From Candidatus Pacearchaeota archaeon (lineage in GTDB: Archaea > Nanobdellota > Nanobdellia > Pacearchaeales > GW2011-AR1), in the NCBI GenBank assembly GCA_016866955.1, contig VGKT01000001.1, forward strand, positions 66,556-130,555: a stretch of 64,000 nucleotides of DNA, written 5' to 3'. The notes beneath the pieces were generated by a model, which was not told the origin of the DNA, searched no databases, and saw only the letters and a list, made by a program, of their open reading frames with translations. Made by a program: the position numbers and the translations under genes. Shown here piece after piece: positions 3,149 through 60,965 of the stretch; within the stretch, counting starts at the first letter, position 1; every line of letters starts with the position of its first letter.

Positions 3149-3170
3149 GGTAAAGAGCTTATTTTTAGGA

Positions 3171-5188: not shown

Positions 5189-5194
5189 TTGTTG

Positions 5195-16411: not shown

Positions 16412-16549
16412 GCGTTTTATGAAGGAAACAGAGTATATAAGTCTTTTTAAGATATATATGTTTGAAAATAACGCTTATTCCTTTTTTTATAGATTTACGA
16501 AGGACAGTCTCGAAGAGTACTTGTTGTCACTTATTTACTCAACATAAGC

Positions 16550-16771
16550 TTTATATAGTCTTAAATGTGTCCCTTATTTACTACTTCGCACTAGATTCAG
16601 GAAGGGGCAAAGCTTTTTAAAGGATTTTCGTGTCAACACTTTACTCTACTCATGCTGAGTAGTGGGGGTATGTTCCCTACGCATATCTCACGGTGGGCTC
16701 TTGAAGCCTTCTCGTTTGGGAGATCCTTCGGGATTACCACACTAAACAGTTGAAAGGGGGATTATAAAAAT
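16550..16771 (+). promoter_or_regulatory. S-layer gene promoter and long structured 5' leader
   Basis: TTTATATA at 16550-16557, with an alternative TTTTTAAA near 16614. There is a 7-bp hairpin CTACTCA-TGC-TGAGTAG at 16646-16662 and a UUCG-loop hairpin (GATCC-TTCG-GGATT) near 16721-16734. A purine-rich AAAGGGGGA lies about 10 nt before the ATG. Confidence 0.4.
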
Positions 16772-19220: not shown

Positions 19221-19291
19221 TTCTCCCTTGGGGAGACCCATGCTTTTTTTTAAAACAAAATCCTTAAAAGTGAGGATTTCTAAAGGAAGTG

Positions 19292-19843: not shown

Positions 19844-19874
19844 TCCTTAAAAGGCACTTTTTCTTAGAAAAGCT

Positions 19875-31775: not shown

Positions 31776-31776
31776 T

Positions 31777-32511
31777 TTATCCTTTATCCGAATATAATTT
31801 ATACTCTTTTTTATATGCAGCGTCTTTTAAACAAAATTCTTTATAAGTGCCGTAAAACTCAATTTTTTGATTAATACTTGCCACTTTATTCACATATTTA
31901 GTTATTCTTCCGATATCGTGTGAAACAAGAAGAATAGTCATGCCCTTGTTATTAAGTTTTCCTAATAAATTATAAAAAGATTCTTTATTTTCCTGATCAA
32001 CCCCCGTTGTTGGTTCATCAAGAATTAAAATTTCTGGAGAGACGACTAATGCCTTCGCGATTAGAACTCTTTGCTGTTGTCCACTAGAAAGTTCCGTAAT
32101 TCTTCTTTGTGAAAAATTTTCCATAGAAACAGAAGTTAAAGCTTCTTTTATTTTACTGTCTTCTCGTTTTGTAATTATCTTAGGAAATTTCTGAATCGAT
32201 AATAGCCCCATAGAAACAACTTCATAAACTGTTGCAGGAAAATTTTTTTCTATATTGGTTGCCTTTTGAGGAACGTATCCTATTTTTTCCCATTCTCCAA
32301 ATTTTTTTAATTCTTTTCCAAATAAACTAACCACTCCTTTTCTTGGAGTAAGTATTCCTAGAATAATTCTAAGAAGTGTGCTTTTTCCTGAGCCGTTCGG
32401 CCCTATTAAACCTACAAAGTCCCCTTTCTTAACTGAAAAAGATATATTTTTTATGACATCAGAATCTGTATAAGAGAACGAAACTGAAGATAAATTTATT
32501 AGAGAATGCAT
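31777..32511 (-). CDS. znuC: Zn/Mn ABC transporter ATP-binding protein (ZnuC family)
   Basis: Walker A GPNGSGKST, signature LSSGQQQR and Walker B ILILDEP. Confidence 0.9.
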   Translation of the reverse strand: MHSLINLSSVSFSYTDSDVIKNISFSVKKGDFVGLIGPNGSGKSTLLRIILGILTPRKGVVSLFGKELKKFGEWEKIGYVPQKATNIEKNFPATVYEVVSMGLLSIQKFPKIITKREDSKIKEALTSVSMENFSQRRITELSSGQQQRVLIAKALVVSPEILILDEPTTGVDQENKESFYNLLGKLNNKGMTILLVSHDIGRITKYVNKVASINQKIEFYGTYKEFCLKDAAYKKEYKLYSDKG

Positions 32512-32521
32512 AGTTATTCTT

Positions 32522-33871
32522 TTATTGGGTACGGCATTTTAAAAATCCCTGAGTCAATAAATTTCTATCTAGATTCTTTCCAATAAATATAAAGATACTT
32601 ACTCTTTTTTCTCCTTCTCTCCATTCTCTATCGATAGAACTCGTTAATAGCATATGTACTCCCTGAAATACCATTCTGTTAGGTAAGTTCTCTATGCTTA
32701 TGATTCCTTTCATCCTATATATATCCGGCCCTAGCACTTGAAGTATATAGCTAAAAAAATCACGAAGCTTTTCAAGATTTAAATCTCCTTCAATTTTTAT
32801 GCCTACAGAACTTACTTCATTATCATGCGTATGGTTTGGCTTAAATTCTTTATGGTATTCTGCGACTAGATTCTTATTTTTTGAGTCAACGATTCTCAAA
32901 TTAAACTCTGTCGGATGATGCTGAGTAGCGATAAGATATCTGCCTTTCTTTGTTTTTAATAAGCATTCTTTTTCTGCCATGTCTAATTCATATAATTTGT
33001 CCGGCTCTATAATTTTATTTGACGAGCCTTTAAATTTGTTAATTATGCCTGAAAACCTTATGGCAGTGTTATTTATTAACTCAGAATTAACCTCTTTTGA
33101 TCCTATTTCTAAAGCGAAAATTTTCATTGAAGGGTCGGGCCCTTTATCATATAATATCTTATAATTGTCATTTTCAAAATCATAAATCCCCAGAAATTCA
33201 AAAGGGTATTCTATTTCTAAAAATTTTTCATCTACAGTTATTTTTTGTTTGATATCGAAACTGTTTATGTTTAGAATATTTGATATAGGTACTTCTGCAT
33301 TAATGGAAGTCATAATTTTTGCTACTGCATTAATACTTTTTATTTTTGCTTTGAGTTTATTTAATTCTTTATTTGAAATTAGGTCTATTTTATTTAATAT
33401 TATTACATCTGCGAAAGCTATTTGTTGTTTTGCCTCTGCATCTTTGTCTATATGGTGCCAAATATGCTTTGCATCAACAAGAGTTACTATCGAATCAAGA
33501 GCATAATTTTCAATAATATTTTCTTGTGTTAAGAACGTTTGAGCTACAGGGGTAGGATTAGCAAGCCCAGTGGTTTCAATTAATAGATAATCAAACTTTT
33601 GATTCTCTTTAACAAATTTTTCAAGTATTTTTATTAAGTCACCTCGAACAGTACAACAAATACAACCGTTATTCATTTCGATAACCTCTTCATTTTCATG
33701 GACGACTAATTCTTGATCCACGCCTACTTCTCCGAATTCATTTTCAATTACAGCAATCTTTTTTCCATGATTTTCTCTTAAAATTCTATTCAAAAGAGTA
33801 GTTTTTCCACTGCCTAAAAAACCTGTTAATATAGTAACGGGGATCTTTTTATTTAAATTCGTTCTTTCCAT
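32522..33871 (-). CDS. COG0523/CobW-family G3E GTPase (putative zinc metallochaperone) with expanded linker
   Basis: P-loop GFLGSGKTTLLN and metal-binding CxCC (GCICCT). The His-containing linker is long (KPNHTHDNE). Confidence 0.8.
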   Translation of the reverse strand: MERTNLNKKIPVTILTGFLGSGKTTLLNRILRENHGKKIAVIENEFGEVGVDQELVVHENEEVIEMNNGCICCTVRGDLIKILEKFVKENQKFDYLLIETTGLANPTPVAQTFLTQENIIENYALDSIVTLVDAKHIWHHIDKDAEAKQQIAFADVIILNKIDLISNKELNKLKAKIKSINAVAKIMTSINAEVPISNILNINSFDIKQKITVDEKFLEIEYPFEFLGIYDFENDNYKILYDKGPDPSMKIFALEIGSKEVNSELINNTAIRFSGIINKFKGSSNKIIEPDKLYELDMAEKECLLKTKKGRYLIATQHHPTEFNLRIVDSKNKNLVAEYHKEFKPNHTHDNEVSSVGIKIEGDLNLEKLRDFFSYILQVLGPDIYRMKGIISIENLPNRMVFQGVHMLLTSSIDREWREGEKRVSIFIFIGKNLDRNLLTQGFLKCRTQ

Positions 33872-33876
33872 TTAAT

Positions 33877-35241
33877 TCACGTACATTCAAGTCCGATTTT
33901 CAGACTATTTAAGTTTTCTTCCATGAGCGAAATGAAAGTTATCCCCTGCTGGAATTGTTCTTTTTGAAGATTGTGTGCAGGACTCAATACTAGTACTTCC
34001 ATCCCTACCTCAGAAGCTATTGTTTCTGCCATTTTTGGGCTTATAAGTTTCTCAAAATAAATATATTTTATTCTATGCTCTTTCGCTAAATCTATAATTC
34101 CCTTAATTTTTTTAGGTGTTGGCTCTGAATCTGGGGATATCCCGTAAGCAGCGATCATTTTAAGGTTGTATTTACGTGCAAGATAGTTGAAGGCATTATG
34201 TCCTCCAGAAATAAACTGGTTTTGCTTGCACTGGGAAAGTGAACGGAGATAGTTTGCATGTAATTTTTCGAGTTTTTTATTATAATTTTCTCCATTCTTC
34301 ATATAAAAATCCTTATTTGCAGGATCTTTTTTCGAAAGTAAATCGGCAATTGCAATAACAATTTTTTGATCATTTTCAAAATCAAGCCAAAAATGTGGAT
34401 CGTATTCTCCGTGATGATGATCATGATGATCTTCTGATTCTGGTTCGGTCATGATTGGTTCAATATCATTTCCTTTCGAGTCTTTGAAGAAATGTTCATC
34501 CGATTCGAATTCAGTAGGCATATGCTCAGTGAAAAAAACATATTTACCATCTTTTGCAATCTCTATGGTAAAAACAGTGATTTCTTTTTCTTCATTAAAA
34601 TTTAAAAGATATGTTACTTCTTTGGGAGTGATTATATCATTATTTTTTTTCTGGTCTTGATTTTTTGACCCCATCAATTCTTTAGCCTTTTGCTCGATAG
34701 ACTCAATATCTTCAGATTTTTGTATTATCATCTTCATTGCAGGATCTGCATATTCCCCTTGAACTTTAGCAAACGACCATTTGTATGTTCCGGCCTTAAG
34801 TTCAAAAATACCTGCCCATTCGAAAGAATGGGCTTCTCCCTCATGGTCGTTTTCTTCATTTTCCCCTGATTTGAGTAAACTAACTTTAGAACTAGCATCA
34901 AGGGGTGTCAGTTTTTCATTGCCGGCTCCTTCAATAATGTCGTGAGCCCAAGGCTCCATTTCAGCTCCAACGTACAAGAACATGTCTGCGTTATTTATCT
35001 TAACTATGTCGCTTGGTTTCGGCTCAAAAGAATGGGCCTCAACTCCTGGAGGAAGTAGTAAGGTAACATCTACCCTCTCTTGACCAACTTCTTTTACAAA
35101 ATCATATAAAGGGTATAGCGTTGTTACAATCAGAAGTTTGTCACTAGAATTTTTGCTTATATTGCTTGGAGTTAAAAAAAAGCCTCCAATCGAAAAAATG
35201 CATAATAGCGCCACGACCATAATAAGCAAATTTTTTTTCAT
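33877..35241 (-). CDS. znuA: Zinc ABC transporter substrate-binding protein (ZnuA family) with about 150-aa insertion at the His-rich loop
   Basis: The start is taken at MKKNLLIMVVALLC, 22 nt after TTTATAAA. ZnuA lobes (LYPLYDFV, PHFWLD) are present. Acidic/His loop EDHHDHHHGEYDPH. Confidence 0.8.
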   Translation of the reverse strand: MKKNLLIMVVALLCIFSIGGFFLTPSNISKNSSDKLLIVTTLYPLYDFVKEVGQERVDVTLLLPPGVEAHSFEPKPSDIVKINNADMFLYVGAEMEPWAHDIIEGAGNEKLTPLDASSKVSLLKSGENEENDHEGEAHSFEWAGIFELKAGTYKWSFAKVQGEYADPAMKMIIQKSEDIESIEQKAKELMGSKNQDQKKNNDIITPKEVTYLLNFNEEKEITVFTIEIAKDGKYVFFTEHMPTEFESDEHFFKDSKGNDIEPIMTEPESEDHHDHHHGEYDPHFWLDFENDQKIVIAIADLLSKKDPANKDFYMKNGENYNKKLEKLHANYLRSLSQCKQNQFISGGHNAFNYLARKYNLKMIAAYGISPDSEPTPKKIKGIIDLAKEHRIKYIYFEKLISPKMAETIASEVGMEVLVLSPAHNLQKEQFQQGITFISLMEENLNSLKIGLECT

Positions 35242-35263
35242 ATATTTATGCAAATAAAATGAT

Positions 35264-35294
35264 TTTATAAACACTATTGATTTTTATTATCAAT
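35264..35294 (-). promoter_or_regulatory. znuA promoter (TATA) with adjacent perfect inverted repeat, candidate metalloregulator operator
   Basis: TTTATAAA at 35264-35271. ATTGAT-N7-ATCAAT at 35276-35294 lies immediately upstream, in the BRE position. Confidence 0.35.
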
Positions 35295-41488: not shown

Positions 41489-41567
41489 TCATTTTAAAGC
41501 GGTTAGACTTATATAAAGTATTCGACCAAAGGGAATGTTTTATAAATGATTTTTTCAATGCATGGTT

Positions 41568-42272
41568 ATGAGTTTTGTGTTGGAATCGATTATGCGCAAG
41601 GTCTCAGACCCGACGGTGCATGACGCATTTATCAAATATAGCAAAGGAATTTTTAATCAAAAGTATCTCGTTCAATCTAAAAAAGGAAAAGAAGGATGGG
41701 CTATTAAAACAAGCGCTGAATATGTTAATAGCATCATCGGTGCAGGATTAGAACGTATTTCAGGTACTGTTGATGTGACGGGAGTTATTGTTGCAACATT
41801 TAACGTAGCTGAAGAAGCAGGATTCCCGACAAAAGGATTGAAACAATTTATGGGAATTAAACAAGTAATTGTAGAGGGATCTATTCCTGCTCAAAAAATT
41901 TTAGCATTAATGCAAAAACAGCCTCGAGCATTTTACGCATTGTCGTTTACATTCCCTGGGGGAAGTATTAAAACAAAAGCAAAAGCTCCAAAAAGTGCAA
42001 AACCTTCCACAAAAGAAACTACTGAGATTGCCCCTGATTTTTGTACGTTAAAAACAACTGATGAATCTCTTGTTGCTCAAATATTACTTGATGTTCCTTC
42101 TGCTAAAACAGTAACACTTTCTCATAGCATTGCGATTACGTCTATTGAATCACCAAAAGGAATTACGGACCCGGTACAATTACGTGAAGGATCTATTCGT
42201 GTAGGAACTATTGAACGAACAGTCATTGCTGATGACGTGACAACAAAACAGTCATTTCCTTTTAGAGCCTAA
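41568..42272 (+). CDS. Hypothetical protein
   Basis: The start is chosen at the ATG 21 nt after TTTATAAA (41539-41546). No recognised motif. Confidence 0.35.
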   Translation: MSFVLESIMRKVSDPTVHDAFIKYSKGIFNQKYLVQSKKGKEGWAIKTSAEYVNSIIGAGLERISGTVDVTGVIVATFNVAEEAGFPTKGLKQFMGIKQVIVEGSIPAQKILALMQKQPRAFYALSFTFPGGSIKTKAKAPKSAKPSTKETTEIAPDFCTLKTTDESLVAQILLDVPSAKTVTLSHSIAITSIESPKGITDPVQLREGSIRVGTIERTVIADDVTTKQSFPFRA

Positions 42273-42811
42273 TATTCAATTCCTTTACGTGCAATTTTTC
42301 CTTGATCATAGGGATGTTTTATTTTTTTTATTTCGGTAACTAAATCAGCGAGTGCAAAAAGCGAAGGATACGCGATATGACTACCAGTGAGTATGAATTC
42401 TTGATTGAATGGCTTTTCTTTGATGAGTTGTTGTATATCTGCTTCAGTGCAAAGCCCTAATTGAATGGCATACAGAAATTCGTCTGCAATGATAATGTCG
42501 TATTTGCCGAAACAAGAACGTACATAGGCACAGGCTTCATCAAAAGAGTTCTTGGCTTCATTATTCGGTTTACCGATTATCCACTCACCTGAACCAAATC
42601 GTTTATATGAGAACCCTGCTAACTGTGCAAGCCCGTTCAATTCTCCCGGATATGCAATCTCGGGGTCTCCTGCGCCGTTTTTCATAGATTGTACGAGATG
42701 AACCGTATATCCATTACCTAACGCTCTGAGCGCTGTCCCTAATGCAGCAGTTGTTTTCCCTTTTCCATTTCCCCAAAAAATACTTACCTGTCCAAGTAGT
42801 GATGTATCCAT
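42269..42811 (-). CDS. cobA: Cob(I)yrinic acid a,c-diamide adenosyltransferase (CobA/CobO/BtuR family)
   Basis: P-loop GNGKGKTTAALG, the ADEF acidic motif and the C-terminus KHPYDQGKIARKGIEY. Confidence 0.85.
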   Translation of the reverse strand: MDTSLLGQVSIFWGNGKGKTTAALGTALRALGNGYTVHLVQSMKNGAGDPEIAYPGELNGLAQLAGFSYKRFGSGEWIIGKPNNEAKNSFDEACAYVRSCFGKYDIIIADEFLYAIQLGLCTEADIQQLIKEKPFNQEFILTGSHIAYPSLFALADLVTEIKKIKHPYDQGKIARKGIEY

Positions 42812-42887: not shown

Positions 42888-43031
42888 ATGAAAGAACGTA
42901 TCTCGGCAACGCTTGACCCTCAAACAATACAGTTAGTACAAGCGCTTGTAAAAAAATTTGGTTATCGTAACAGTTCGCACCTTATTGAAGAAGCAATAAA
43001 ATCATTTTCACATCAGAGGAATAAAAAATGA
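42888..43031 (+). CDS. Ribbon-helix-helix (CopG-like) small DNA-binding protein
   Basis: Not in the ORF track (47 aa). Manual translation gives MKERISATLDPQTIQLVQALVKKFGYRNSSHLIEEAIKSFSHQRNKK, with a beta-strand then two helices. Its TGA overlaps the next ATG (ATGA at 43028-43031). Confidence 0.5.
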   Translation: MKERISATLDPQTIQLVQALVKKFGYRNSSHLIEEAIKSFSHQRNKK

Positions 43032-43774
43032 GGGGACAAGTGATCGTTTGGGTTTTTGTAGCATTGGGCATTACGGCAACTTTTGTTTTGTTACTTAGTA
43101 TCAAAACGAATCCTCAACGACAAGAAATTACAGTTGATGATCCTGTTACTTATATGCAAACTTGTGTACGTGATGCGATTGTTGATGAATTAGATTCTCG
43201 TCTTCCTCGCGGAGGAATTGTCGACAAAGGAATCTCCCTTGAATATAATAATCTCTCTCGCACTTATTATTGCTATACACGAAGTTTATTTCAACCTTGT
43301 CTGATGCATCATCCTTTACCGCTTGAGACGCTTACCACTCAACTAATAAGTGCCACTCGCCCACTCGTAGAATCCTGTTTTGCTTCACTACAAGAACAAC
43401 TTGAAGCAAGTGGAAAAGAAACGATTATGCGCTCTTTAACTTATTCCTTATTGTTTGCTCCACATTCATTGGAGATTACTCTTGAACGCCCCTTTACCAT
43501 TATCGATAGAGGAACAACACGTGAATACCAGACATTTAGTTTTACCATGAAAACACCGGTGTATGAATTGATTGATCTTGCTCGTGAAATTGCAAGTCAA
43601 GAGGCGCAATTTTGTTATTTTGAATATGCAGGTTATATGATTTTGTATCCAGCAATCACTATTGAAAAGAAAACAATACAGGATGGAATAAAACTCTACA
43701 CTTTGAAAGATGTATCTTCTAAACAAGAACTTACTTTTGCAACACGAGGGTGTGTGTTGCCGGCGGGACTCTGA
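43028..43774 (+). CDS. Class III signal peptide protein, family A of the Cys-rich module
   Basis: MRGQVIVWVFVALGITATFVLLL N-terminus. It is a paralogue of 47721-48533. Confidence 0.55.
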   Translation: MRGQVIVWVFVALGITATFVLLLSIKTNPQRQEITVDDPVTYMQTCVRDAIVDELDSRLPRGGIVDKGISLEYNNLSRTYYCYTRSLFQPCLMHHPLPLETLTTQLISATRPLVESCFASLQEQLEASGKETIMRSLTYSLLFAPHSLEITLERPFTIIDRGTTREYQTFSFTMKTPVYELIDLAREIASQEAQFCYFEYAGYMILYPAITIEKKTIQDGIKLYTLKDVSSKQELTFATRGCVLPAGL

Positions 43775-46700
43775 TGCGTTTTATACAACCTCTGGCTTTG
43801 GGAGAAATATGTTTACTTGTAAGTATGAGTTTTGCGTTTGCTTGGATTATGCATGAAAGCCTTGCTCTAGATACGCCTGTTCCTGTTTCTACTCCTCCTT
43901 CGCTTGCTTCATTCCTTGCATTCATTGGTACTCTTTTATTTGGAAAAACAACCGTAAGTGCTTCTACTCCGGGAGTGTGGACTTGTCCTGTAATGAAAGA
44001 TGGGAGTACGTGTCAAGAAGTACAAAGTGACCTGTGTGCAACTTATTGTACCACTGCTTGTATTCCTGTACGCGCCCAGGACGTTCAACAATGTAGACTG
44101 GGGACTTGTTTTTCTTCAACAACGGGAGGTTGTAGTGCGGGAACTCCGCGAGATACTTGTACGGTGGCTGGAGGGCAATGGTTTGACGCCCCTCGTGAGA
44201 ATGTGCTTCAATGTCGTTTGGGTTGTTGTTTAAGTGGACAACAAGCAGTGTTTAGCACAGAACAAGCGTGTTTACGACAAGCACAAACATTAGGCACTAC
44301 AAAAGTGTTTCGTCCTGAGATACGTACGGAACTTGCGTGTATTGCATCAGGGGGAAGTGATAAAGAAGGGGCTTGTTTGATTGGACAAGATGATGAAGGA
44401 AAAAATAATTGTATCTTTGGTACGCAAACAGAATGCCAAACACGTCGAGGAGTTTTTCATGAAGGACGGTTGTGTTCCGCACCCTCATTAAACACGAGTT
44501 GTCAAGCACAGCAACGTACTGGATGTGTTGCACAAAAAGATGAGGTATATTGGTTTGATAGTTGTGGCAATCGTGAAAATATTTATGCTTTGCCAAAAAC
44601 AACGAGCTTCAACGGAGGGGGCGTACAACCAAAAAGTGCCTCATGCACCTTGACGCAACAACTTACCAATGCGGGAATCTGTGGTAATTGTAACTATCTG
44701 CAGGGGAGCATTTGTAAACGAGCACCGGGTGTGGCAAGTATCGGAGATTTTGCCTGTCGAGATTTGAAATGTACTGATAGATGGGGAAACAAACGAGCGC
44801 CTGGTGAAAGCTGGTGTGCATATCAAGGAAGTACGGGCCAAGATACTAACCGGGGAACAGATACGGTCGGAAGTCGACATTTCCGTGAAACATGCGTGCA
44901 AGGAGAAGTGCAACAAGATGCTTGTCAAGACTATCGTAATGAAATCTGTGTACAAACAACAAGCGGTACTGGTGCGACACGATACACTACTGCTGCCTGT
45001 CGCTTAAATCGTTGGGCAGAATGTGTTGCCTATAATAATCCGCAAAAACCTGATGAAAAAGAAAAGTGTACTCAGAACCCTGACTGTTTTGTGAAACAAG
45101 TCTCGGTTGGACAATTTGCATTTAACTTGTGTACTCCAAAATACGTTCCGGGATTTGATTTATTGGAAAATGGAAGAGGAGAAGGATCTGAAGCAATTTG
45201 TTCAATGGGTAGTCAGAAATGTACCAAAGTCATGGTCAAAGGACTGGGAGGATGGAAATGTAAAGCAAATTGTCAATGTGATACTACCCTCTTTACTGAG
45301 CAAATGAACAATCTTTGTACTAGCCTTGGAGATTGTGGTATGAAAGCAAATTATCTGGGCACTACTTCCGAAAGTTATCGAGTGACTGGGGCCCCTGCAT
45401 TGGGTACCAGTTATCGTACCGGAATTATGCGTTATGCAGACGAACGACTCTTCAAAGACCGTCCGGCTCTTGCAGGAAGCCTTGATGCGTTTTATGCCTT
45501 GACCGGTATTCCTCCAGGATTAGGCATAGGTACTGAACCGACGGATAGCACTGCTGAAACGCGTGGAGCATTGAGTATGCCGATTGGAATGGCGGGGATA
45601 GTGATAGGTCTTGCTGCAAAAACCGTTATTGGCGCACAACTCTTATCTACCGTTGGTCTTGCAACCGTACAAACCGCAACCGCAACGGCATGGGCTACTA
45701 CAGTCGGGGGTCAAACTGTAAGTGCAACTGCAAGTGTAGCACACTCTCCTGCACTTGGAGCAGCAGGAGGAGCATTCATTGGGGCAACAATTGGATTTGC
45801 ACTCACGAGTTTCTTACTTGACGTTACTGGAGTGGGCAGAGGATTACCTCCGGCATTGACCTATGCATTAATGGCTGCTGGAACAGTGGGGGGAGCTATT
45901 GCAGGATATGGTGTGTTAGGTGGCACCATTGGAACGGGAGGTACTTTTGGAGTAGGAGGTGCAGGATTTGCAAGCTTGGGCCCCGCAGCAAGTCTTGCAG
46001 CGGTCGGACTTATTATTATTGCCGTAGTGATTATTATCATCGTTATTATGCAAGTACTCGGGATTGGTAAAGTTAGAAAGATAGAAGCAACCTTTACTTG
46101 CAAACCCTGGCAAGCACCGACGGGAAGTGAGAAATGTGGCACGTGTGGGAGTGATGGATTCCCTTGTAGTAGATATGCTTGTTCTGCTTTGGGACAGAAT
46201 TGTCAACTGATTAATGAAGCAACCGATGAACCGGAATGTGTAGGAATTAGTCGTGATGATGTGGTGCCTCCCGTGATTAGTCCACTCACCGGAGTAATTA
46301 GTGTGGGACATCAGTATAGTACTCCGGGGCCTCTGGGTTTCACATTAACAGGACCGGAAGAGTGTTTAGAACCATTTAGTCAGGTTATCTTTGGACTGGG
46401 ATTGGATGAACCAGGACAATGTAAATATAGCACTTCTTCCTCTACCTCATTTGATGCTATGACTGCAGACTTTGGATTGAGTACCTTATTCCGACGAAAT
46501 CATACGATGATTCTTCCTGTACCGAGCATTGAAGCATTGGGCTATACAGGGTATCAAACTAACTTTACCGCACGTCAAACACTTTATGTGCGCTGTCAGG
46601 ATAAAAATGGTAATGTAAATCAAGCAAGTTATGGGATTCAATTTTGTGTGAAACGAGGATTAGATGTAACTCCCCCTGTTGTGGTAGCAAAAACACCTTC

Positions 46701-47724
46701 CTGGGACTATGTTGGCTTCTTGGCAACGCAACAAAATGTGACGTTGTATACCAATGAACCGGCAACTTGTCGTATCAGTGATCAAGCACAAACCTACGAT
46801 GCTATGACACAAGAATTAACGTGTCTGAATGATCCAGTTGAAGATACTCCTTCCCTCTTTGGATGGGCTTGTAATACTACGGTGCACTTGCTTGCTCGTA
46901 ATGATTCAACATTCTATACTCTTTGCAAAGATCAACCTTGGCTCATTGGTAAAAATGTCTCGATATATCGAGTGAATAATACTAATTACACGTATAATGC
47001 TGATGCAGTCAATATGACGTTCTTACAATTTATTGGAAGTCGATCGGGCACAGTTCCTACGCTCATTCAAACTATTCCTGAAGCAATAGTAACGAATATC
47101 ACAGGTAATGGCACTACGAAACGTATTCAAACACGTAATCTTATGCAACAAACATATTCGTTTACCGTTCGAAAAAGTGTTGCGCCCTTACGCATTACGG
47201 AAGTGCAACCAAATGGCACGCTTACCTTTGGAACAATGCCTGCTTCCGTTTCTCTGGTGGTGCGCACAGGAGGAGGATTAGACGGCACGGCTACTTGTCG
47301 ATATCAGTTTGGAGAACACTGGATTGATTTTAGAGATACTTTAGGATTAGTACATCGTCAAACGCTTTCATTATATAATGGAACGCATACCTTCCCCATA
47401 CGATGTGAAGATCAAGCAGGGAACATTGCAGGAAGTACTGTGACCTTTACCATTAAAGCAGACACAACTATGCCTTTAATCGCTCGAGCATATGGTTCAG
47501 GAAACACTCTTACCATAATCACCAACGAACCTTCAACCTGTAAAGCAAGTACTATCGGATGTCAAGAAACTTGGCTGAATGGAACGCTTCTTTCAGGCAC
47601 AGAACGAAGCCATACGCTTTCCTGGCAAGCAAAGGAAACCTATTATGTACAATGCGTTGATCAGTATCTTAATGGTCCGGGAAGTCAGTGTCAAGCAATT
47701 GTAAGGAGACAAGGAACAGCATGA
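43774..47724 (+). CDS. Giant (about 1316 aa) cysteine-rich membrane protein: Cys-rich ectodomain, Gly/Ala-rich multi-TM region and Ig-like repeat C-domain
   Basis: The start is at MRFIQPL (TGATG overlap). Cys-rich domain about 43981-45339, Gly/Ala-rich hydrophobic region about 45562-46065, C-domain about 46096-47721. No recognised family. Confidence 0.7.
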   Translation: MRFIQPLALGEICLLVSMSFAFAWIMHESLALDTPVPVSTPPSLASFLAFIGTLLFGKTTVSASTPGVWTCPVMKDGSTCQEVQSDLCATYCTTACIPVRAQDVQQCRLGTCFSSTTGGCSAGTPRDTCTVAGGQWFDAPRENVLQCRLGCCLSGQQAVFSTEQACLRQAQTLGTTKVFRPEIRTELACIASGGSDKEGACLIGQDDEGKNNCIFGTQTECQTRRGVFHEGRLCSAPSLNTSCQAQQRTGCVAQKDEVYWFDSCGNRENIYALPKTTSFNGGGVQPKSASCTLTQQLTNAGICGNCNYLQGSICKRAPGVASIGDFACRDLKCTDRWGNKRAPGESWCAYQGSTGQDTNRGTDTVGSRHFRETCVQGEVQQDACQDYRNEICVQTTSGTGATRYTTAACRLNRWAECVAYNNPQKPDEKEKCTQNPDCFVKQVSVGQFAFNLCTPKYVPGFDLLENGRGEGSEAICSMGSQKCTKVMVKGLGGWKCKANCQCDTTLFTEQMNNLCTSLGDCGMKANYLGTTSESYRVTGAPALGTSYRTGIMRYADERLFKDRPALAGSLDAFYALTGIPPGLGIGTEPTDSTAETRGALSMPIGMAGIVIGLAAKTVIGAQLLSTVGLATVQTATATAWATTVGGQTVSATASVAHSPALGAAGGAFIGATIGFALTSFLLDVTGVGRGLPPALTYALMAAGTVGGAIAGYGVLGGTIGTGGTFGVGGAGFASLGPAASLAAVGLIIIAVVIIIIVIMQVLGIGKVRKIEATFTCKPWQAPTGSEKCGTCGSDGFPCSRYACSALGQNCQLINEATDEPECVGISRDDVVPPVISPLTGVISVGHQYSTPGPLGFTLTGPEECLEPFSQVIFGLGLDEPGQCKYSTSSSTSFDAMTADFGLSTLFRRNHTMILPVPSIEALGYTGYQTNFTARQTLYVRCQDKNGNVNQASYGIQFCVKRGLDVTPPVVVAKTPSWDYVGFLATQQNVTLYTNEPATCRISDQAQTYDAMTQELTCLNDPVEDTPSLFGWACNTTVHLLARNDSTFYTLCKDQPWLIGKNVSIYRVNNTNYTYNADAVNMTFLQFIGSRSGTVPTLIQTIPEAIVTNITGNGTTKRIQTRNLMQQTYSFTVRKSVAPLRITEVQPNGTLTFGTMPASVSLVVRTGGGLDGTATCRYQFGEHWIDFRDTLGLVHRQTLSLYNGTHTFPIRCEDQAGNIAGSTVTFTIKADTTMPLIARAYGSGNTLTIITNEPSTCKASTIGCQETWLNGTLLSGTERSHTLSWQAKETYYVQCVDQYLNGPGSQCQAIVRRQGTA

Positions 47725-56664: not shown

Positions 56665-58887
56665 ATGCCTAAAAGAGTGAAAAAGTATCTGCTTATTTCG
56701 CATATTCAAATTTTTTTACTTCTCTCATTGTCAATTACTATCCCTGGATTAGTTTCTGCGACTTCGACAACACCGACGGGAACAGGATTTTCAGAATGGG
56801 TAAGAAGAATTGCAAGCGGTAATGCATTACAGGGGTCAAGCGCCGTAACTATTCAAGCAGGAGCAAGCGTTCCAGCAGGCACGTACTCTTCAGGTACTTT
56901 TAATGTAAATGGCCAATTATTTTCAGCTACACCAACAAACCCTCTTGCTGTTGTAGAATCAAGCGCAGGAACTACCGTTGCAAGTGGAGGACTACCAATT
57001 CAAGGTGCTCCTGCTGCCCCTTCTGTTCCAGGACAAATAACTGCTGATACTGCAATCACCAAGGTGGCTACACCTGGAGCAGCTGCGGGAAGCGCACTCA
57101 TCCAAGGATTATTTTGGGGAGTAGCATTATATGCAGGGATTAAAATGTTAGGCGGATTATTTGGTGCTGGGGAGAAGACTACAAATGCGCTTGCAAATGC
57201 TGCGCTTGTTGGAGGAATAGGGGGTGGAGCGGTTAAGGCGGCTATTTTGTCTTTTAGACCTGAAACAACGGCTGCTTCAAAAGTCAACTTCTTAGGCGGT
57301 TCATTCACGCCCGGACAACTGGGCTTTGGAGCGGGGGTGGCGATTGCAGTGATTGTGTTCTTGGTTATGTATAAAGATACGAAGACAAAAATAGTCAATT
57401 ATCAGTGTTTACCTTGGGAACCTGCATTGGGTGGAGCGAACTGTGGAGAGTGTAATAAGAATCCGTTACAACCTTGTTCTGAATATCGCTGTAAATCATT
57501 GGGACAGGCATGTGAGTTAGTGAATCCAGGGACAGATGCTGAGAAATGTATTTGGAAGAGTAAGAATGACGTGACCTCGCCGACTATTACTCCGTGGGAA
57601 GAAGCATTAAAACCAACTGGATTACGCTATGTTCCTTTAGAATCTCGTCCAAATGCCCGTGGAACGCGTATCGTGAGTGCAAATGGGGATTGCTTGGATG
57701 CGTTTACCCCTCTCGAATTTGGTATTACGACGAATGAACAAGCCCAATGTAAACTTGACTTCAAGAATGCTAATTACAGTGCAATGCAGTTCCTCTTTGG
57801 GGGAAGCAATTACTATGTGACCAATCATACTCAGAAAATGAAATTGCCTTCCGCAACAGCAGGTGATGGTATTGTCTTACAGAATGACGGCACCTTTGAT
57901 TTGTATGTGAAGTGTCAAGATGCGAATGGGAACGTAAATGAAGATGTATATTTGATTGAATATTGTGTGAAGAAAGGTCCAGATACAACTCCTCCGGTGA
58001 TTGTAGATACATCTATTCCTTCAGGAAGTCCGGTACGATTTGGAGCGGACGCCGTACCACTTGAGGTGTATATCCAAGAACCAGCACAGTGTAAATGGAG
58101 TCGGATGAGTAAACCGTATGATGATATGGAACATCTCTTTACTTGTGCGACTTCACCTACTCAATTAAATGGTGATTTAAGTTATACCTGTACGGGCAAT
58201 CTTACCGGCATCAAAGATAGAGCAGACAATCAATTTTATTTCAGATGTCAAGATTTAAGCAATAACACGATGGTGCAAAGTTATCCGTTTGTATTGAAAG
58301 GAAGTCAACCATTGACTCTCCTTGAAACGAGCCCGAATGGAACGTTATATGGTGCAACAACGACGGTACCTGTGACGCTCGCTATTAAAACTGATGATGG
58401 AGCAGAAGCAGGAAAAGCAACTTGTTATTACAGCGCTCCAACTACTTTAGGAGAACCTATCAAGTTTTTCTCTACCGAAAGCTTTACGCATAGTCAACAA
58501 GTTGATGTAGGAGCAGGATTCCATCAATATTCCCTATTCTGTGTTGATGCAGGAGGAAATACGGCAAACCGTACGATTAACTTTACGATGAACATTGATC
58601 AACAAGCTCCGCGAGTCACGCGCGTGTATCGTGAAGAAGCATTAAAGATTGTGACTGATGAAGCTGCGGAATGTGCTTACTCATTGAACAGTTGTAATTT
58701 TGATTTAGATGACGGTATTAAGTTACAATATAGCAAACCAGATGTGCAAAATCAACATTTCGTTGATTGGAAATCAAGCTCGACGTATTATGTTAAGTGT
58801 GTAGACAAGTATGGCAATCAACCTGACCCTGTAGAATGTTCTGTGGTCGTTAGTCCGAAGCAATTTTTGAATGCAACGAATAACTAA
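56665..58887 (+). CDS. Membrane protein paralogous to the C-terminal half of the giant protein (Gly/Ala-rich TM region plus Ig-like repeat domain)
   Basis: YQCLPWEPALGGANCGECN...CSEYRCKSLGQACELVN and LYVKCQDANGNVNEDVYLIEYCVKKGPDTTPPVIV match the giant protein segment by segment. The ATG lies 21 nt after TTTATATA (56636-56643). Confidence 0.65.
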   Translation: MPKRVKKYLLISHIQIFLLLSLSITIPGLVSATSTTPTGTGFSEWVRRIASGNALQGSSAVTIQAGASVPAGTYSSGTFNVNGQLFSATPTNPLAVVESSAGTTVASGGLPIQGAPAAPSVPGQITADTAITKVATPGAAAGSALIQGLFWGVALYAGIKMLGGLFGAGEKTTNALANAALVGGIGGGAVKAAILSFRPETTAASKVNFLGGSFTPGQLGFGAGVAIAVIVFLVMYKDTKTKIVNYQCLPWEPALGGANCGECNKNPLQPCSEYRCKSLGQACELVNPGTDAEKCIWKSKNDVTSPTITPWEEALKPTGLRYVPLESRPNARGTRIVSANGDCLDAFTPLEFGITTNEQAQCKLDFKNANYSAMQFLFGGSNYYVTNHTQKMKLPSATAGDGIVLQNDGTFDLYVKCQDANGNVNEDVYLIEYCVKKGPDTTPPVIVDTSIPSGSPVRFGADAVPLEVYIQEPAQCKWSRMSKPYDDMEHLFTCATSPTQLNGDLSYTCTGNLTGIKDRADNQFYFRCQDLSNNTMVQSYPFVLKGSQPLTLLETSPNGTLYGATTTVPVTLAIKTDDGAEAGKATCYYSAPTTLGEPIKFFSTESFTHSQQVDVGAGFHQYSLFCVDAGGNTANRTINFTMNIDQQAPRVTRVYREEALKIVTDEAAECAYSLNSCNFDLDDGIKLQYSKPDVQNQHFVDWKSSSTYYVKCVDKYGNQPDPVECSVVVSPKQFLNATNN

Positions 58888-59386: not shown

Positions 59387-60007
59387 TCATTTTTCTACAG
59401 AACAGGGAGAGACCTGTTCAAGTTCACATACATAATCAAAATGGGTGTCAAAGAGATCGTTTTCTGCATACTCTACGGTACCTATCCCATTATTATAGAA
59501 CGTGCCTTTCTTTGGTTTGAATAGAATAGAGACTACCTGGTCTTTGAGTTTTTGAGAAAGTAACAATCCAGCAGGAGTAATCGTGAGATCATTCAAGATT
59601 ATCTTCTTTTTTGAAGCATGTATATTCCCCAGTATGGCACATGTTCGTGTAGTAGACAATGATTTCTGAATTGTGTCTGCAAGCGACCTTTCTAACGCTT
59701 CCTGATTTTGTACCTCATTCGGTGCGATATAGAGAACTCTTACATTTTTTGGTAATGCTTTAATCAATTGTATATAGGCAGGACTCAAAAGTCCACTTGT
59801 ACCTATCTTCTGAGCATAAGAAAGCATGTCCTTTAAAGCTATTTCTTGAAATTCTTGAGGTATTTCTAAACAGACGGTAAAATCTTCTTTTTGAGCTAAC
59901 TCTTGAAATAAATGAGAGAGAAGAGCAGGTATTTCATTTGTTCCATGCATTTCTCCGAAAAGAATGAGTTTCTTTCCCCTTATGAATGAAAGCAGTTTCT
60001 CAGCCAT
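59387..60007 (-). CDS. EreA/ChaN-like (Tiki superfamily) putative hydrolase
   Basis: LILFGEMHGTNEIP...FTVCLEIP...ILGNIHA pattern, similar to erythromycin-esterase/ChaN-type GE.HG motifs. At 206 aa it is much shorter than EreA. Confidence 0.4.
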   Translation of the reverse strand: MAEKLLSFIRGKKLILFGEMHGTNEIPALLSHLFQELAQKEDFTVCLEIPQEFQEIALKDMLSYAQKIGTSGLLSPAYIQLIKALPKNVRVLYIAPNEVQNQEALERSLADTIQKSLSTTRTCAILGNIHASKKKIILNDLTITPAGLLLSQKLKDQVVSILFKPKKGTFYNNGIGTVEYAENDLFDTHFDYVCELEQVSPCSVEK

Positions 60008-60008
60008 G

Positions 60009-60965
60009 TTATTCTACTAAATTATTAGTTACCTCACTAGTTACATTGTAGCCTGACTGCTCTTCAAGCCATAACCATTGCCCATTAGGATTAAGTTCTA
60101 AGAAATAATATTTTTTATCTTTTGAATAGATAAAATCAAAGGCACCGAAATGTAACCCATAGTGCATAAGCATAGTGGCACAAAACTCTTTTACTTTTTT
60201 AGGAAGTTCCACTTGTTGGTACGTAACATTTTCAAAATCGTACCGCCGATAATCAATTTTTGATCTTTCAGAGTCTTGAGAATGAATCGCAATTCCCGTT
60301 GTAGTGGTATCTGTTGCAATTATTCTGATTTCAAATTCTTTTTCAATATATTCTTGAAATAACGATGGGTGACTGGAAACAAGTGCAGAATTTCTCATTT
60401 GTGCTTCAGTCACTTTATTAGTATAAACCACCTTATTTCCTTCCGGGGTCCTAATTACTGCCCCTTTCTGTAACTTAAAGCAGATATTTCCCATATGTTC
60501 TCTATAAAAATTTTCTAAATCTGCAGGATCAGTAGTTACAATCGTATCTGGAACAAGCATCCCTCTTTCTAATGCGAATTTAATTTGATGGAGTTTACTA
60601 TTTGCATAAAAATGATTTTGGGGGCGATTTACCACTTTTCCACTATGGGTCATTAATAAACCATCCCACGTCTTCTCACATTCATCAGTTACCAAATCTT
60701 GTAAATCTTTAGGTTGTCCTTTATTTCTATCAGGAATCATCACTCGTCGATTCCAAATATTCCATGAAGAGTCTAATTCGATAGACCTCTGCTTGTCAGC
60801 GAGAGTATAACTTCCATTTTTAGAATAAAATTTTATTTTATAATCGCTTAATAAATTTTCGGTAACAACTGTGAAATTTTCTACGCCTCTCCGATCTAAC
60901 TCCCGTCGTACTGATAAAGCGTGAGGATCATCAGAATAAGTGAGAATTAAAACTTTCTTTTTCAT
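60009..60965 (-). CDS. ATP-grasp ligase of the microviridin MdnC/MvdD (graspetide maturase) type
   Basis: 318 aa. VLILTYSDDPHALSVRRELDRRG...YKIKFYS...WNRR at the N-terminus and FLELNPNGQWLWLE at the C-terminus parallel MdnC as I remember it (VLIVTFSRDNES..., FLEINPVGEFFWLE). Confidence 0.65.
   Translation of the reverse strand: MKKKVLILTYSDDPHALSVRRELDRRGVENFTVVTENLLSDYKIKFYSKNGSYTLADKQRSIELDSSWNIWNRRVMIPDRNKGQPKDLQDLVTDECEKTWDGLLMTHSGKVVNRPQNHFYANSKLHQIKFALERGMLVPDTIVTTDPADLENFYREHMGNICFKLQKGAVIRTPEGNKVVYTNKVTEAQMRNSALVSSHPSLFQEYIEKEFEIRIIATDTTTTGIAIHSQDSERSKIDYRRYDFENVTYQQVELPKKVKEFCATMLMHYGLHFGAFDFIYSKDKKYYFLELNPNGQWLWLEEQSGYNVTSEVTNNLVE

What the first reader, a model, noticed from the sequence alone, without database searches (positions are those of the whole stretch)
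43774..58887. Fusion/fission: the 1316-aa protein equals the 489-aa secreted Cys-rich protein plus the 740-aa membrane/Ig-like protein encoded 6.7 kb further on
The 489-aa protein (48530-49999) aligns along the N-terminal ectodomain of the giant protein. It ends at YKVVGP, exactly where the giant protein reads YRVTGAP and continues into its Gly/Ala-rich hydrophobic region. The 740-aa protein (56665-58887) has its own signal, a similar Gly/Ala-rich multi-helix region (GLFWGVALYAGIKMLGGLFGAG, GFGAGVAIAVIVFLVMY) and then matches the giant C-domain block by block: FTCKPWQAPTGSEKCGTCGSDGFPCSRYACSALGQNCQLIN versus YQCLPWEPALGGANCGECNKNPLQPCSEYRCKSLGQACELVN, and LYVRCQDKNGNVNQASYGIQFCVKRGLDVTPPVVV versus LYVKCQDANGNVNEDVYLIEYCVKKGPDTTPPVIV. 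The C-domain contains about 4 repeats, each introduced by a D-x-T-x-P-like boundary and carrying conserved Cys and many N-x-S/T sequons, which suggests Ig-like extracellular repeats. One copy is therefore fused and one is split. This argues that the two halves work together physically.
Basis: seen in the sequence. Interest (0 to 1): 0.7.

Follow-up and report, generated by a model that had tools for sequence, protein, structure and literature searches.

The report
Split and fused archaeal envelope protein
In this tiny-celled archaeon (Pacearchaeota), a 1316-residue membrane protein does have a second copy split into two genes; the arrangement is ancient, conserved in hundreds of species and belongs to an uncharacterised cell-envelope gene cluster whose function is still unknown.

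Summary
The 489-aa protein aligns with residues 47-539 of the 1316-aa protein (32% identity, E 7e-73). The 740-aa protein aligns with residues 641-1310 (E 1e-49 and 9e-28). The two short proteins do not resemble each other.

The window is a Pacearchaeota (DPANN archaeon) chromosome. All four genes overlap stop to start. The order pilin A, fused, pilin B, N-half, variable gap, C-half recurs in nearly all of 80 species-representative genomes.

Fused is ancestral. Deep branches carry two fused copies, and unsplit second copies sit beside split ones in bootstrapped trees. So fission happened at least twice. It was not a simple stop codon, because the C-half keeps the fused protein's conserved N-terminal hydrophobic segment.

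The N-half has no detectable structural relative. It carries about 43 Cys that vary in covarying pairs, and it is depleted in glycosylation sequons. The C-half has four Ig-like domains and 21 Cys. Each half has an odd Cys count, which suggests one disulfide between the halves.

Function is unknown; I infer a core envelope complex. Whether the Ig-like part lies outside the cell is unresolved.

The parts
43028..43774 (+). pA: 248-aa pilin-like protein. It has a class-III-type N-terminus (MRGQ followed by a hydrophobic helix), and the family carries 6 conserved Cys. It is the partner gene of the fused protein.
   Evidence: Translation. It is a paralogue of the 281-aa gene (28% identity, E 3e-37). 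The family alignment has invariant Q10 and four invariant Cys. Its stop codon overlaps the start codon of the fused gene as TGATG. It precedes the fused gene in 63 loci.
43774..47724 (+). Fused protein of cassette 1, 1316 aa. In order it holds: a conserved N-terminal hydrophobic segment (TM1), a Cys-rich N domain, Gly/Ala-rich uncharged helices, a strongly hydrophobic helix followed by KVRK, a Cys knot and Ig-like domains.
   Evidence: (100% identical to P0001).
43981..45408 (+). N domain of the fused protein (aa 70-545): 43 Cys and only 1 glycosylation sequon.
45409..46083 (+). Gly/Ala/Ser/Thr-rich hydrophobic middle region of the fused protein (aa 546-770). It has no Cys and almost no charged residues. 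Its last helix, LAAVGLIIIAVVIIIIVIM, is the only clear membrane span.
46084..47724 (+). C domain of the fused protein (aa 771-1316): a 7-Cys knot followed by four beta-sandwich domains, 21 Cys in all.
   Evidence: Fold is inferred by homology with the modelled 740-aa protein.
47721..48533 (+). pB: pilin-like protein with the motif KKRGQ followed by a hydrophobic helix; the family carries 4 conserved Cys. It is the partner gene of the N-half. The likely start is the ATG at 47721; the mechanical ORF list starts at the GTG at 47688, and an internal ATG lies at 47760.
   Evidence: There is an ATGA overlap with the fused gene's stop codon and another with the N-half's start codon. The orthologue in L004 starts with MKTIINIRR.
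48530..49999 (+). N(s): 489-aa secreted Cys-rich protein, the split N-half of cassette 2. It has an ordinary Sec signal peptide, 43 Cys in the mature chain and no membrane anchor.
   Evidence: AlphaFold2 model with mean pLDDT 80. No structural match in the PDB or in BFVD.
50071..50829 (+). o252: variable gene in the gap between the two halves. It is conserved only in the closest relative, L004 (59% identity).
51550..56087 (-). Low-GC (28-33%) island inserted between the two halves. It carries GT1, GT28-C, a 140-aa ORF, a histidine phosphatase, GT1 and GT2 genes. It is not part of the system.
   Evidence: The glycosyltransferase genes are absent from L004.
56241..56618 (+). o125: small lipoprotein-like ORF (LSGC lipobox-like motif) just upstream of the C-half. 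Other genomes have variable small secreted proteins or lipoproteins at this position.
56665..58887 (+). C(s): 740-aa split C-half of cassette 2. TM1 covers aa 1-32 and carries the family motif IQIFLLLSLS...VSA. A disordered Ser/Thr-rich linker covers aa 33-136. Three Gly/Ala-rich helices cover aa 137-236, followed by KDTKTK. A 7-Cys knot covers aa 248-297, and four Ig-like domains cover aa 300-730.
   Evidence: AlphaFold2 model with mean pLDDT 80. Foldseek matches.

Best explanation
The three proteins belong to a conserved, uncharacterised cell-envelope gene cluster of Pacearchaeota-type DPANN archaea.

The ancestral unit is a two-gene cassette. The first gene encodes a type-IV-pilin-like protein with a K-[RK]-G-Q class-III-type signal. 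The second, translationally coupled to it, encodes a large membrane protein. That protein consists of a conserved N-terminal hydrophobic segment (TM1), a disulfide-knotted Cys-rich head of about 480 aa, Gly/Ala-rich uncharged helices plus one strong membrane helix, a 7-Cys knot and four Ig-like beta-sandwich domains.

The cassette was duplicated in tandem long ago. The first copy stayed fused. The second copy underwent fission, at least twice independently. This produced a secreted head, N(s), with an ordinary Sec signal, and a membrane protein, C(s), that keeps TM1, the linker, the Gly/Ala helices and the Ig-like array.

Shown: the homology, the conserved order, the overlapping stop and start codons, the paralogy, unsplit orthologues in deep branches, the pairwise covariation of Cys, and the folds.

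Inferred:
1. The split halves still assemble into the equivalent of the fused protein, probably with pilin B. One inter-half disulfide is possible, because each half conserves an odd number of Cys.
2. The fission arose by re-use or duplication of the gene's own 5' end. This gave the C-half an export or anchor segment.
3. The complex has a core envelope role, either as a scaffold or attachment module tied to the S-layer and pilin-like proteins, or in contact with a partner cell. It is unlikely to be a fast-evolving adhesin, because the head evolves as slowly as a cytoplasmic enzyme.
For: Homology of the three proteins.

Pilin-like partners and coupling.

Conserved order: pA, fused, pB, N(s), C(s) occurs in nearly all of 80 GTDB species representatives. 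At least 535 species representatives encode a relative.

Three large orthologue families:
- fused: 290 hits
- N-only: 1776 hits at 55-86% identity
- C-only: more than 507 hits

Phylogeny:
- Both domain trees split cleanly into cassette 1 and cassette 2.
- Cassette 2 is monophyletic in 100% of 200 bootstraps.
- Fused L081, L083 and L082 branch in succession outside split L074+L077, with 93-100% support.
- Among 245 long representatives, 13 are clear cassette-2 fused proteins and 38 are deep-branching fused proteins. The listed N-termini mostly show a TM1-like motif.
- The deep-branch locus L084 has two fused copies in tandem.

The TM1 motif is shared by the fused proteins and C(s). It is absent from N(s) and from other secreted proteins of the window.

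The N(s) proteins of L074 and L077 are colinear with fused L082 up to the first hydrophobic segment.

Cysteines:
- Counts are N(s) 43/41/45, C domain 21, and odd/odd in 188 of 211 fused proteins. pA has 6 and pB has 4.
- Variable Cys columns covary in pairs, phi 0.95-1.0.

Rates of change between the window and L001: N(s) 62% identity against 61% for the neighbouring CobA-like enzyme.

Envelope context: in L085 the cluster abuts four more pilin-like genes and the S-layer-like gene. These are homologous to window 13663-19165.
Against: - No direct test of contact between N(s), C(s) and pB was possible. No multimer modelling was available and model coordinates could not be read.
- N(s) is translationally coupled to pB, not to C(s). 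C(s) lies up to 7.4 kb away and falls outside the fetched stretch in some loci, for example L015, L016 and L085. The halves may therefore have partly independent roles.
- An inter-half disulfide requires both halves outside the cell. The last membrane helix has 0.2-0.9 Lys+Arg in its N-flank and 3.3 in its C-flank. The two Gly/Ala helices form a hairpin in the model. Standard topology rules therefore put the Ig-like domain in the cytoplasm.
- Two or more independent fissions with the same unusual outcome (TM1 on the C-half) is not parsimonious. The trees are neighbour-joining only.
- Function is wholly inferred. There is no Pfam, NCBIfam or PDB-sequence match.
Confidence: 0.7

Rival explanations
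1. Transmembrane-coupler topology. Only the Cys-rich head and the Gly/Ala linker are outside the cell. The Ig-like array with its 7-Cys knot, acting as a zinc module, is cytoplasmic. The protein links an external head to an internal scaffold. In the split version the secreted head can reach C(s) only through its short external linker and helices, or through pilin B.
For: The flanks of the last membrane helix follow the positive-inside rule: Lys+Arg is 0.2-0.9 on the N side and 3.3 on the C side, with consensus YKKEKKK. On the Hessa scale, only the last helix of most fused proteins has dG below 0. The AlphaFold2 model shows a four-helix up-down arrangement in which helices 137-165 and 170-197 are joined by a 4-residue turn. 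Sequon frequency in the C domain is neutral, at 1.14 and 0.90.
Against: All 21 Cys of the C domain are at least 95% conserved. They sit mid-strand at B/F-like positions in each beta-sandwich, in even numbers per domain (4, 4, 2, 4). That pattern fits disulfides rather than zinc sites. The C domain's composition (Ser+Thr 15-20%, Lys+Arg 7-8%) resembles the window's secreted proteins, not its cytoplasmic ones. Weak Big_13 and Y_Y_Y hits and the Foldseek matches are mostly to ectodomains. Neutral sequon frequency is also seen in the window's S-layer-like protein.
Confidence: 0.4
2. Fusion, not fission. The split N and C genes are ancestral, and the 1300-aa proteins arose by gene fusion.
For: N(s) and C(s) abut in some genomes (gaps of 1, 15 and 76 bp in L027, L024 and L074), so read-through fusion is mechanically easy. 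Split forms far outnumber unsplit ones in cassette 2 (77 of 80).
Against: A read-through fusion would give an ordinary signal at the N-terminus and a TM1-like segment after the head. The fused proteins of both cassettes instead have TM1 at the N-terminus and a dissimilar hydrophobic segment after the head. Cassette 1, the cassette-2 unsplit forms and the 38 ambiguous deep branches all share the same fused architecture. Fused lineages are paraphyletic to split L074+L077.
Confidence: 0.1
3. After fission the halves became functionally independent. N(s) works with pilin B as a secreted or pilus-associated factor. C(s) is a separate membrane protein.
For: N(s) overlaps pB, not C(s). The gap between the halves holds variable, unrelated genes and ranges from 1 bp to 7.4 kb. 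N(s) is more conserved (55-86% identity) than C(s) (40-78%). In L085 no C(s) lies within 8 kb.
Against: C(s) follows N(s) on the same strand in 52 loci. The N and C trees of cassette 2 are congruent. Both halves keep the odd Cys count that they have in the fused protein. C(s) keeps the linker and the helices that tether the head in the fused form.
Confidence: 0.2
4. Artefact: the split copy is a frameshifted, pseudogenised or misassembled duplicate of the fused gene.
For: None beyond the low (32%) identity between the paralogues.
Against: Both halves are intact ORFs with their own export signals. They have hundreds of orthologues of the same lengths from independent assemblies.
Confidence: 0.01

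Closest known systems
Rosetta-stone (gene fusion/fission) protein pairs
   Same: Two separate proteins align with non-overlapping parts of one composite protein. They co-occur in the same genomes and the same cluster. This is classic evidence of a functional link.
   Different: Composite and split versions coexist as ancient paralogues in the same operon. The break is not a simple cut, because the C-half carries a copy of the composite's N-terminal hydrophobic segment. Fission appears to have recurred.
Archaeal type IV pilin-like proteins with class III signal peptides (for example EppA-type pilins with Gln at +1, and Sulfolobus bindosome subunits)
   Same: pA and pB have a basic N-terminus, then K/R-G-Q and about 20 hydrophobic residues. 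This is the sequence pattern of prepilin-peptidase substrates, as I recall it and as reviewed in PMC6098224. Four more such genes lie at 13663-16055.
   Different: There is no Pfam or NCBIfam hit. The globular part is about 220 aa with 4-6 conserved Cys, larger than typical pilins. No peptidase, ATPase or platform gene was seen in the window. Cleavage is not shown.
Two-component archaeal S-layers (Sulfolobales SlaA canopy plus membrane-anchored SlaB with beta-sandwich domains)
   Same: An anchorless secreted subunit is paired with a membrane-anchored subunit built from beta-sandwich domains, and the two are encoded together. This comparison rests on my own knowledge.
   Different: There is no sequence or fold match. 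The anchor is N-terminal here and the beta-sandwich domains are C-terminal. The genome has a separate S-layer-like gene (PF05124, 16772-19165). The head is Cys-rich and sequon-poor, whereas S-layer proteins are Cys-poor and glycosylated.
Bacterial Ig-like domain surface proteins (Pfam Big_13) and tandem Ig/Fn3 ectodomains
   Same: The C-half folds as four tandem beta-sandwich domains with D-x-x-G-N-like strand-end motifs. Foldseek E-values reach 5e-12.
   Different: Pfam scores are below the gathering threshold in the window proteins (19.4 and 17.6 against 27). The domains follow a membrane helix with a Lys-rich flank, so their location is uncertain.
Cleaved viral class I fusion glycoproteins (surface subunit plus transmembrane subunit, in some families disulfide-linked)
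   Same: The analogy is in layout only. A Cys-rich head is followed by Gly/Ala-rich hydrophobic segments and a membrane anchor. One version is in two chains, and an inter-chain disulfide is possible.
   Different: There is no structural match to any viral protein (BFVD) or to any PDB fusogen. No heptad-repeat region was identified. A 500-aa Ig-like array follows the anchor.

Membership tests
Rosetta-stone fusion/fission pair | Two separate proteins align with distinct, non-overlapping parts of one composite protein. | tested here: met
   residues 47-539 align with the 489-aa protein, residues 641-1310 align with the 740-aa protein, and the two short proteins share no similarity.
Rosetta-stone fusion/fission pair | The components co-occur across genomes, and the shared domains are not promiscuous. 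| tested here: met
   One search shows the same cluster in nearly all of 80 loci. Every Cys-rich N domain I recovered was in one of these two architectures; this was not checked exhaustively.
Archaeal class III signal peptide / type IV pilin-like proteins (pA, pB) | Basic N-terminus, then [KR]-[GA] followed by Gln/Ala/Ser and a hydrophobic helix of about 20 residues. | tested here: met
   K-[RK]-G-Q with Gln invariant, followed by a hydrophobic stretch, in 29 of 29 aligned members.
Archaeal class III signal peptide / type IV pilin-like proteins (pA, pB) | Match to curated pilin or class III signal models (for example Pfam PF04021) or to a solved pilin or archaellin. | tested here: not met
   No Pfam or NCBIfam hit. 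The only PDB sequence hit is a non-significant match to a 'Flagellin' chain (9v96) over the N-terminus (E 1.3).
Archaeal class III signal peptide / type IV pilin-like proteins (pA, pB) | Processing by a prepilin peptidase, with an assembly ATPase and platform protein present. | not tested
   None was seen among the window ORFs scanned. The rest of the genome was not examined, and cleavage cannot be tested with these tools.
Bacterial Ig-like domain, Pfam Big_13 (PF19077) | Score above the Pfam gathering threshold. | tested here: not met
   19.4 and 17.6 bits against a cut-off of 27. Several orthologues have a precomputed PF19077 or PF07495 hit listed.
Tandem Ig/Fn3-like beta-sandwich fold | Predicted structure matches solved Ig/Fn3 arrays. 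| tested here: met
   AlphaFold2 pLDDT is about 90 or higher over most of the C domain. Foldseek gives 478 PDB matches at E <= 0.001, the best at 5e-12.
Archaeal S-layer protein families | Match to S-layer Pfam models or structures. | tested here: not met
   None of the three proteins has a hit. A different gene, at 16772-19165, matches PF05124.
HAP2/fusexin and viral fusion glycoproteins | Structural similarity of the ectodomain to class I, II or III fusogens. | tested here: not met
   Foldseek with the N-half model finds nothing at E <= 0.001 in the PDB (best 0.059) or in BFVD (best 0.13).
Glycine-zipper two-helix membrane domains (for example Pfam PF05433) | Pfam match over the Gly-rich helices. 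| tested here: not met
   No Pfam hit in the middle region. There is only a visual GxxxG-like pattern in the consensus.

The most novel reading that the evidence does not exclude
The two-cassette cluster encodes the Pacearchaeota apparatus for contacting, and possibly breaching, a partner cell's membrane. In this reading a slowly evolving, glycan-free, disulfide-knotted head binds a conserved ligand. The uncharged Gly/Ala-rich helices act like fusion peptides or pore-forming glycine zippers. The split version works like a cleaved two-chain viral glycoprotein held together by one disulfide, with the pilin-like partners extending or priming it. If the Ig-like array is truly cytoplasmic yet disulfide-patterned, that would be a further oddity.
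Probability: 0.1. Interest if true: 0.9.

Novelty: new variant of a known kind. Interest (0 to 1): 0.5.

Why it matters
Pacearchaeota and their relatives are abundant, uncultured, tiny-celled archaea that are thought to depend on other cells. Nothing is known about how their envelope is built or how they attach. Castelle et al. 2021 (PMC8204110) list the Pacearchaeota-specific protein families as lacking any predicted function, although many are membrane-bound or extracellular.

This cluster is present in at least 535 species representatives. It is highly conserved and contains a roughly 480-residue, 43-Cys domain with no detectable structural relative. That makes it a prime candidate for a core envelope or attachment machine.

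The natural fused/split pair gives concrete interaction hypotheses that can be tested: head with Ig-like membrane half, head with pilin-like partner, and one specific inter-chain disulfide. It is also a clear example of recurrent gene fission in which the downstream half had to regain an export or anchor segment.

Tried and rejected
- Sequence searches for function gave nothing usable. Pfam and NCBIfam scans of all cluster proteins found only sub-threshold Big_13. PDB sequence-profile searches for the N-half, the C-half and the pilin-like family found nothing significant.
- Foldseek with the N-half model against the PDB and against viral structures found no match. The fusogen and known-fold ideas are therefore unsupported.
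- The hypothesis that the C domain is sequon-enriched and therefore a glycosylated ectodomain holds only for this window's fused protein. It is rejected family-wide.
- The hypothesis that TM1 is just the usual signal peptide of this organism is rejected. The motif occurs nowhere else in the window under the strict regular expression, and other secreted proteins lack it.
- The hypothesis that TM1 is itself a class III signal is rejected. The residue before the conserved Gln/Glu varies (Ile, Cys, Ala, Leu, Phe or Gly).
- The genes in the gap between the halves are not conserved members of the cluster. No BLAST similarity was found between loci.
- The representative-library profile search was meant to reach distant relatives of the N domain. 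Sequence weighting kept the full-length columns (1185 positions), so the top 150 hits are all fused proteins. It gave counts and deep-branch fused examples but no distant architectures.
- Cluster look-up gave no organism names for the deep branches.
- Literature searches found no description of this family.


Full report
**What the window is.** The 1316-aa protein is identical to NCBI FJZ22_00735 from a Candidatus Pacearchaeota archaeon. Neighbouring genes are archaeal housekeeping genes: L1, L10P with its archaeal/eukaryotic-type insertion domain, FtsZ, RNase J and a class II aminoacyl-tRNA synthetase. The finding therefore lies on the chromosome of a DPANN archaeon, not on a mobile element.

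**Checking the observation.**
- All three ORFs are present at the stated coordinates.
- The 489-aa protein aligns end to end with residues 47-539 of the 1316-aa protein (32% identity, E 7e-73). It stops at YKVVGP, where the large protein reads YRVTGAP.
- The 740-aa protein aligns with residues 641-1053 and 1120-1310 (32-34% identity, E 1e-49 and 9e-28).
- The two short proteins are unrelated to each other.
- A tblastn search of the window finds no further copies.

- Each Cys-rich gene is preceded by a gene of about 250 aa: 43028-43774 (pA) and 47721-48533 (pB). The two are paralogues (28% identity, E about 1e-35).
- Both families start with a basic stretch, then K-[RK]-G-Q and about 20 hydrophobic residues. 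The Gln is invariant in 29 aligned members. This is the sequence pattern of archaeal class III (prepilin-type) signals.
- No curated model or solved structure matches them, so I call them pilin-like by motif only.
- The four genes overlap stop to start: TGATG at 43772-43776, ATGA at 47721-47724 and ATGA at 48530-48533. They are therefore made together as pA, fused protein, pB, N-half.

**Conservation.**
- All three architectures are large orthologue families in Pacearchaeota and Nanoarchaeota metagenome-assembled genomes. Fused proteins of 1250-1400 aa give 290 hits. N-only proteins of about 500 aa give 1776 hits at 55-86% identity. C-only proteins of about 700-1000 aa give more than 507 hits at 40-78% identity.
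- A scan of one genome per GTDB species found at least 535 genomes with a relative.
- In the best 80 loci, my ORF and BLAST classification gives the same order almost everywhere: pA, fused, pB, N(s), gap, C(s), all on one strand.
- The gap between N(s) and C(s) ranges from 1 bp (L027) to 7.4 kb, with a median of 1.6 kb. The window's 6,665 bp is the second largest.
- The window's gap holds a low-GC glycosyltransferase island. Those genes are absent from the closest relative, L004, which keeps only the o252-, phosphatase- and o125-like genes.
- The 6.7-kb separation is therefore a local insertion.

**Fusion or fission.**
- Trees of the N domain and of the C domain each split cleanly into cassette 1 (fused, after pA) and cassette 2.
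- In three loci (L081, L082, L083) the gene after pB is itself fused (1198-1385 aa). Both of its domains group with N(s) and C(s).
- In 200 bootstraps of a concatenated neighbour-joining tree, cassette 2 is monophyletic (100%). The order is (L081 fused, (L083 fused, (L082 fused, (L074 split, L077 split)))) with 93-100% support.
- A profile search of 1.84 billion cluster representatives found 5523 related clusters. The best 150 are all fused.
- I classified 245 long proteins. 194 are cassette 1, 13 are clear unsplit cassette 2, and 38 are deep branches that fit neither cassette better.
- One deep-branch locus, L084, has two fused genes in tandem with a pilin-like gene between them.
- Fused is therefore ancestral. 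The split arose in cassette 2, apparently more than once.

**How the split was made.**
- Fused proteins of both cassettes and the C-halves share a conserved N-terminal hydrophobic segment. It reads roughly [QE]-I-x-L-L-[IV]-S-x-S-F-A-F-A-F, followed about 10 residues later by V-S-A. I call it TM1.
- N-halves have an ordinary, unconserved Sec signal instead. Other secreted proteins of this genome also lack the motif.
- The N-halves of L074 and L077 are colinear with unsplit L082 up to the first hydrophobic segment after the head.
- In effect the head was lifted out from between TM1 and the membrane region. A stop codon alone cannot do this.
- The simplest route (inference) is that a copy of the gene's own 5' end gave the downstream half a start codon and an export or anchor segment. 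The N-half's TM1 then decayed into a generic signal.
- This also argues against re-fusion. A read-through fusion would put a TM1-like segment after the head, and that is not seen.

**Anatomy, N-half.**
- AlphaFold2 with 67 sequences gives a mean pLDDT of 80.
- Foldseek finds no match at E <= 0.001 in the PDB or in BFVD. The profile search finds no PDB sequence relative.
- The domain has 39 Cys columns conserved in at least 95% of 145 sequences. The remaining variable Cys columns within the domain covary as pairs (phi 0.95-1.0). That is the signature of disulfides.
- Cys counts are 43, 41 or 45 and change in steps of two.
- Glycosylation sequons are strongly depleted. Observed/expected is 0.25 in fused heads and 0.43 in N-halves, while the reversed-motif control is at expectation.
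- Between the window and L001 the head is as conserved as the neighbouring CobA-like enzyme: 62% against 61%. The C-half is at 54%, the fused protein at 50%, pB at 46% and pA at 40%.
- This looks like a machine part, not an adhesin in an arms race.

**Anatomy, C-half.** AlphaFold2 gives a mean pLDDT of 80. The model contains:
- helix 5-31 (TM1);
- a disordered Ser/Thr-rich linker, 31-135;
- helices 137-165 and 170-197, joined by a 4-residue turn;
- helix 216-236;
- a 7-Cys knot;
- four beta-sandwich domains.

Foldseek matches generic tandem Ig/Fn3 arrays. All 21 Cys columns are conserved.

**Cys parity.**
- N-halves always have an odd number of Cys. C domains have 21.
- Fused proteins are odd plus odd in 188 of 211 cases.
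- pA and pB have even counts, 6 and 4.
- One unpaired Cys in each half invites the prediction of a single disulfide between the halves. It would be intramolecular in the fused protein and intermolecular in the split pair.
- This is an inference. I could not read the model coordinates.

**Topology problem.**
- Evidence that the Ig-like part is cytoplasmic. The last membrane helix has 0.2-0.9 Lys+Arg in its N-flank and 3.3 in its C-flank, with consensus YKKEKKK. On the Hessa scale only this helix clearly inserts in most fused proteins. The two Gly/Ala helices look like a hairpin. Standard rules therefore place the Ig-like array inside the cell.
- Evidence that it is outside. The Cys are invariant, sit mid-strand and come in even numbers per domain. 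The composition is rich in Ser+Thr and poor in Lys+Arg. The fold's relatives are mostly ectodomains.
- I put the extracellular reading at about 55-60%.

**Context.** The window also holds four more class-III-type genes (13663-16055) upstream of an S-layer-like gene (16772-19165, PF05124), and an AglB-like oligosaccharyltransferase. In locus L085 the homologous block directly follows pA, fused, pB, N(s). This ties the cluster to envelope biogenesis.

**What is known.** Castelle et al. 2021 (PMC8204110) report that Pacearchaeota-specific protein families have no predicted function and are often membrane-bound or extracellular. I found no paper describing this family.

**Verdict.**
It is an ancient, clade-wide pair of paralogous cassettes, one fused and one split by recurrent fission. 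It lies inside an uncharacterised envelope cluster with pilin-like partners and a head domain that has no detectable structural relative.
- Well supported: that the halves belong to one functional module.
- Inferred: that they touch, by a disulfide or otherwise, and what the module does.
- I rate interest at 0.5. The fusion/fission logic is a known kind of evidence, but the system it exposes is new and testable.

Noticed in passing
window 13663-16055 (+), with 16772-19165 (+) and 19289-20543 (+): Four consecutive small genes start with class-III-type signals (MRGQLELSF..., MLRGFEFSF..., MRGQLKIQEM..., MKRGQEEIVGF...). They lie upstream of an S-layer-like gene (PF05124). In locus L085 the homologous block (E 1e-14 to 1e-41) lies directly downstream of pA, fused, pB, N(s). 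The two clusters may therefore form one envelope supercluster.
   Followed up: partly
window 51550-56087 (-): A low-GC (28-33%) island lies between the two split halves. It carries GT1, GT28-C, a histidine phosphatase, GT1 and GT2 genes. The glycosyltransferases are absent from the closest relative, L004, so this is probably a recent insertion.
   Followed up: partly
window 557-8931: A protein-glycosylation block contains two GT2 genes, a Wzx-like flippase, a GT4 (PF00953) gene and a 910-aa protein with a weak STT3/AglB core match. It is relevant to the strong sequon depletion of the Cys-rich head.
   Followed up: no
window 43981-45408 and 48530-49999, and all orthologues: The Cys-rich head is strongly depleted in N-x-S/T sequons (observed/expected 0.25-0.43, with the reversed motif at expectation). 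The C domain and the window's S-layer-like protein are neutral. This suggests selection against glycans on the head.
   Followed up: yes
window 30954-35274 (-): A low-GC (31-32%) block encodes a zinc-type ABC transporter (ABC-3 permease, ATPase, ZnuA-like binding protein of 465 aa) and a CobW-family GTPase. Its composition differs from the flanks (38-41% GC).
   Followed up: no
window 21711-23618 (-): A 635-aa secreted protein made of CARDB/Ig-like/Fn3-like domains. It is another envelope protein, unrelated to the finding.
   Followed up: no
window 59387-60965 (-): An ATP-grasp protein with an MvdD-type pre-ATP-grasp domain (318 aa) sits next to a 206-aa protein with a weak ChaN/Tiki hit and a 156-aa ORF with no match. 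It could be a peptide-modification cassette.
   Followed up: no
L073 1-21159; L002/L003/L020 about 5970-6813; L078: Three variants of the cluster were seen. L073 has three cassettes (pA-fused, pA-fused, pB-N...C). L002, L003 and L020 have a nucleotidyltransferase/HepT toxin-antitoxin pair inserted between pB and N(s). L078 has the first cassette inverted relative to the second.
   Followed up: no
window 41562-42811: A 236-aa protein with no family match and a CobA/BtuR-type adenosyltransferase on the opposite strand lie upstream of pA. Homologues of each occur in 29 of the fetched loci, so the cluster sits in a stable syntenic block.
   Followed up: partly
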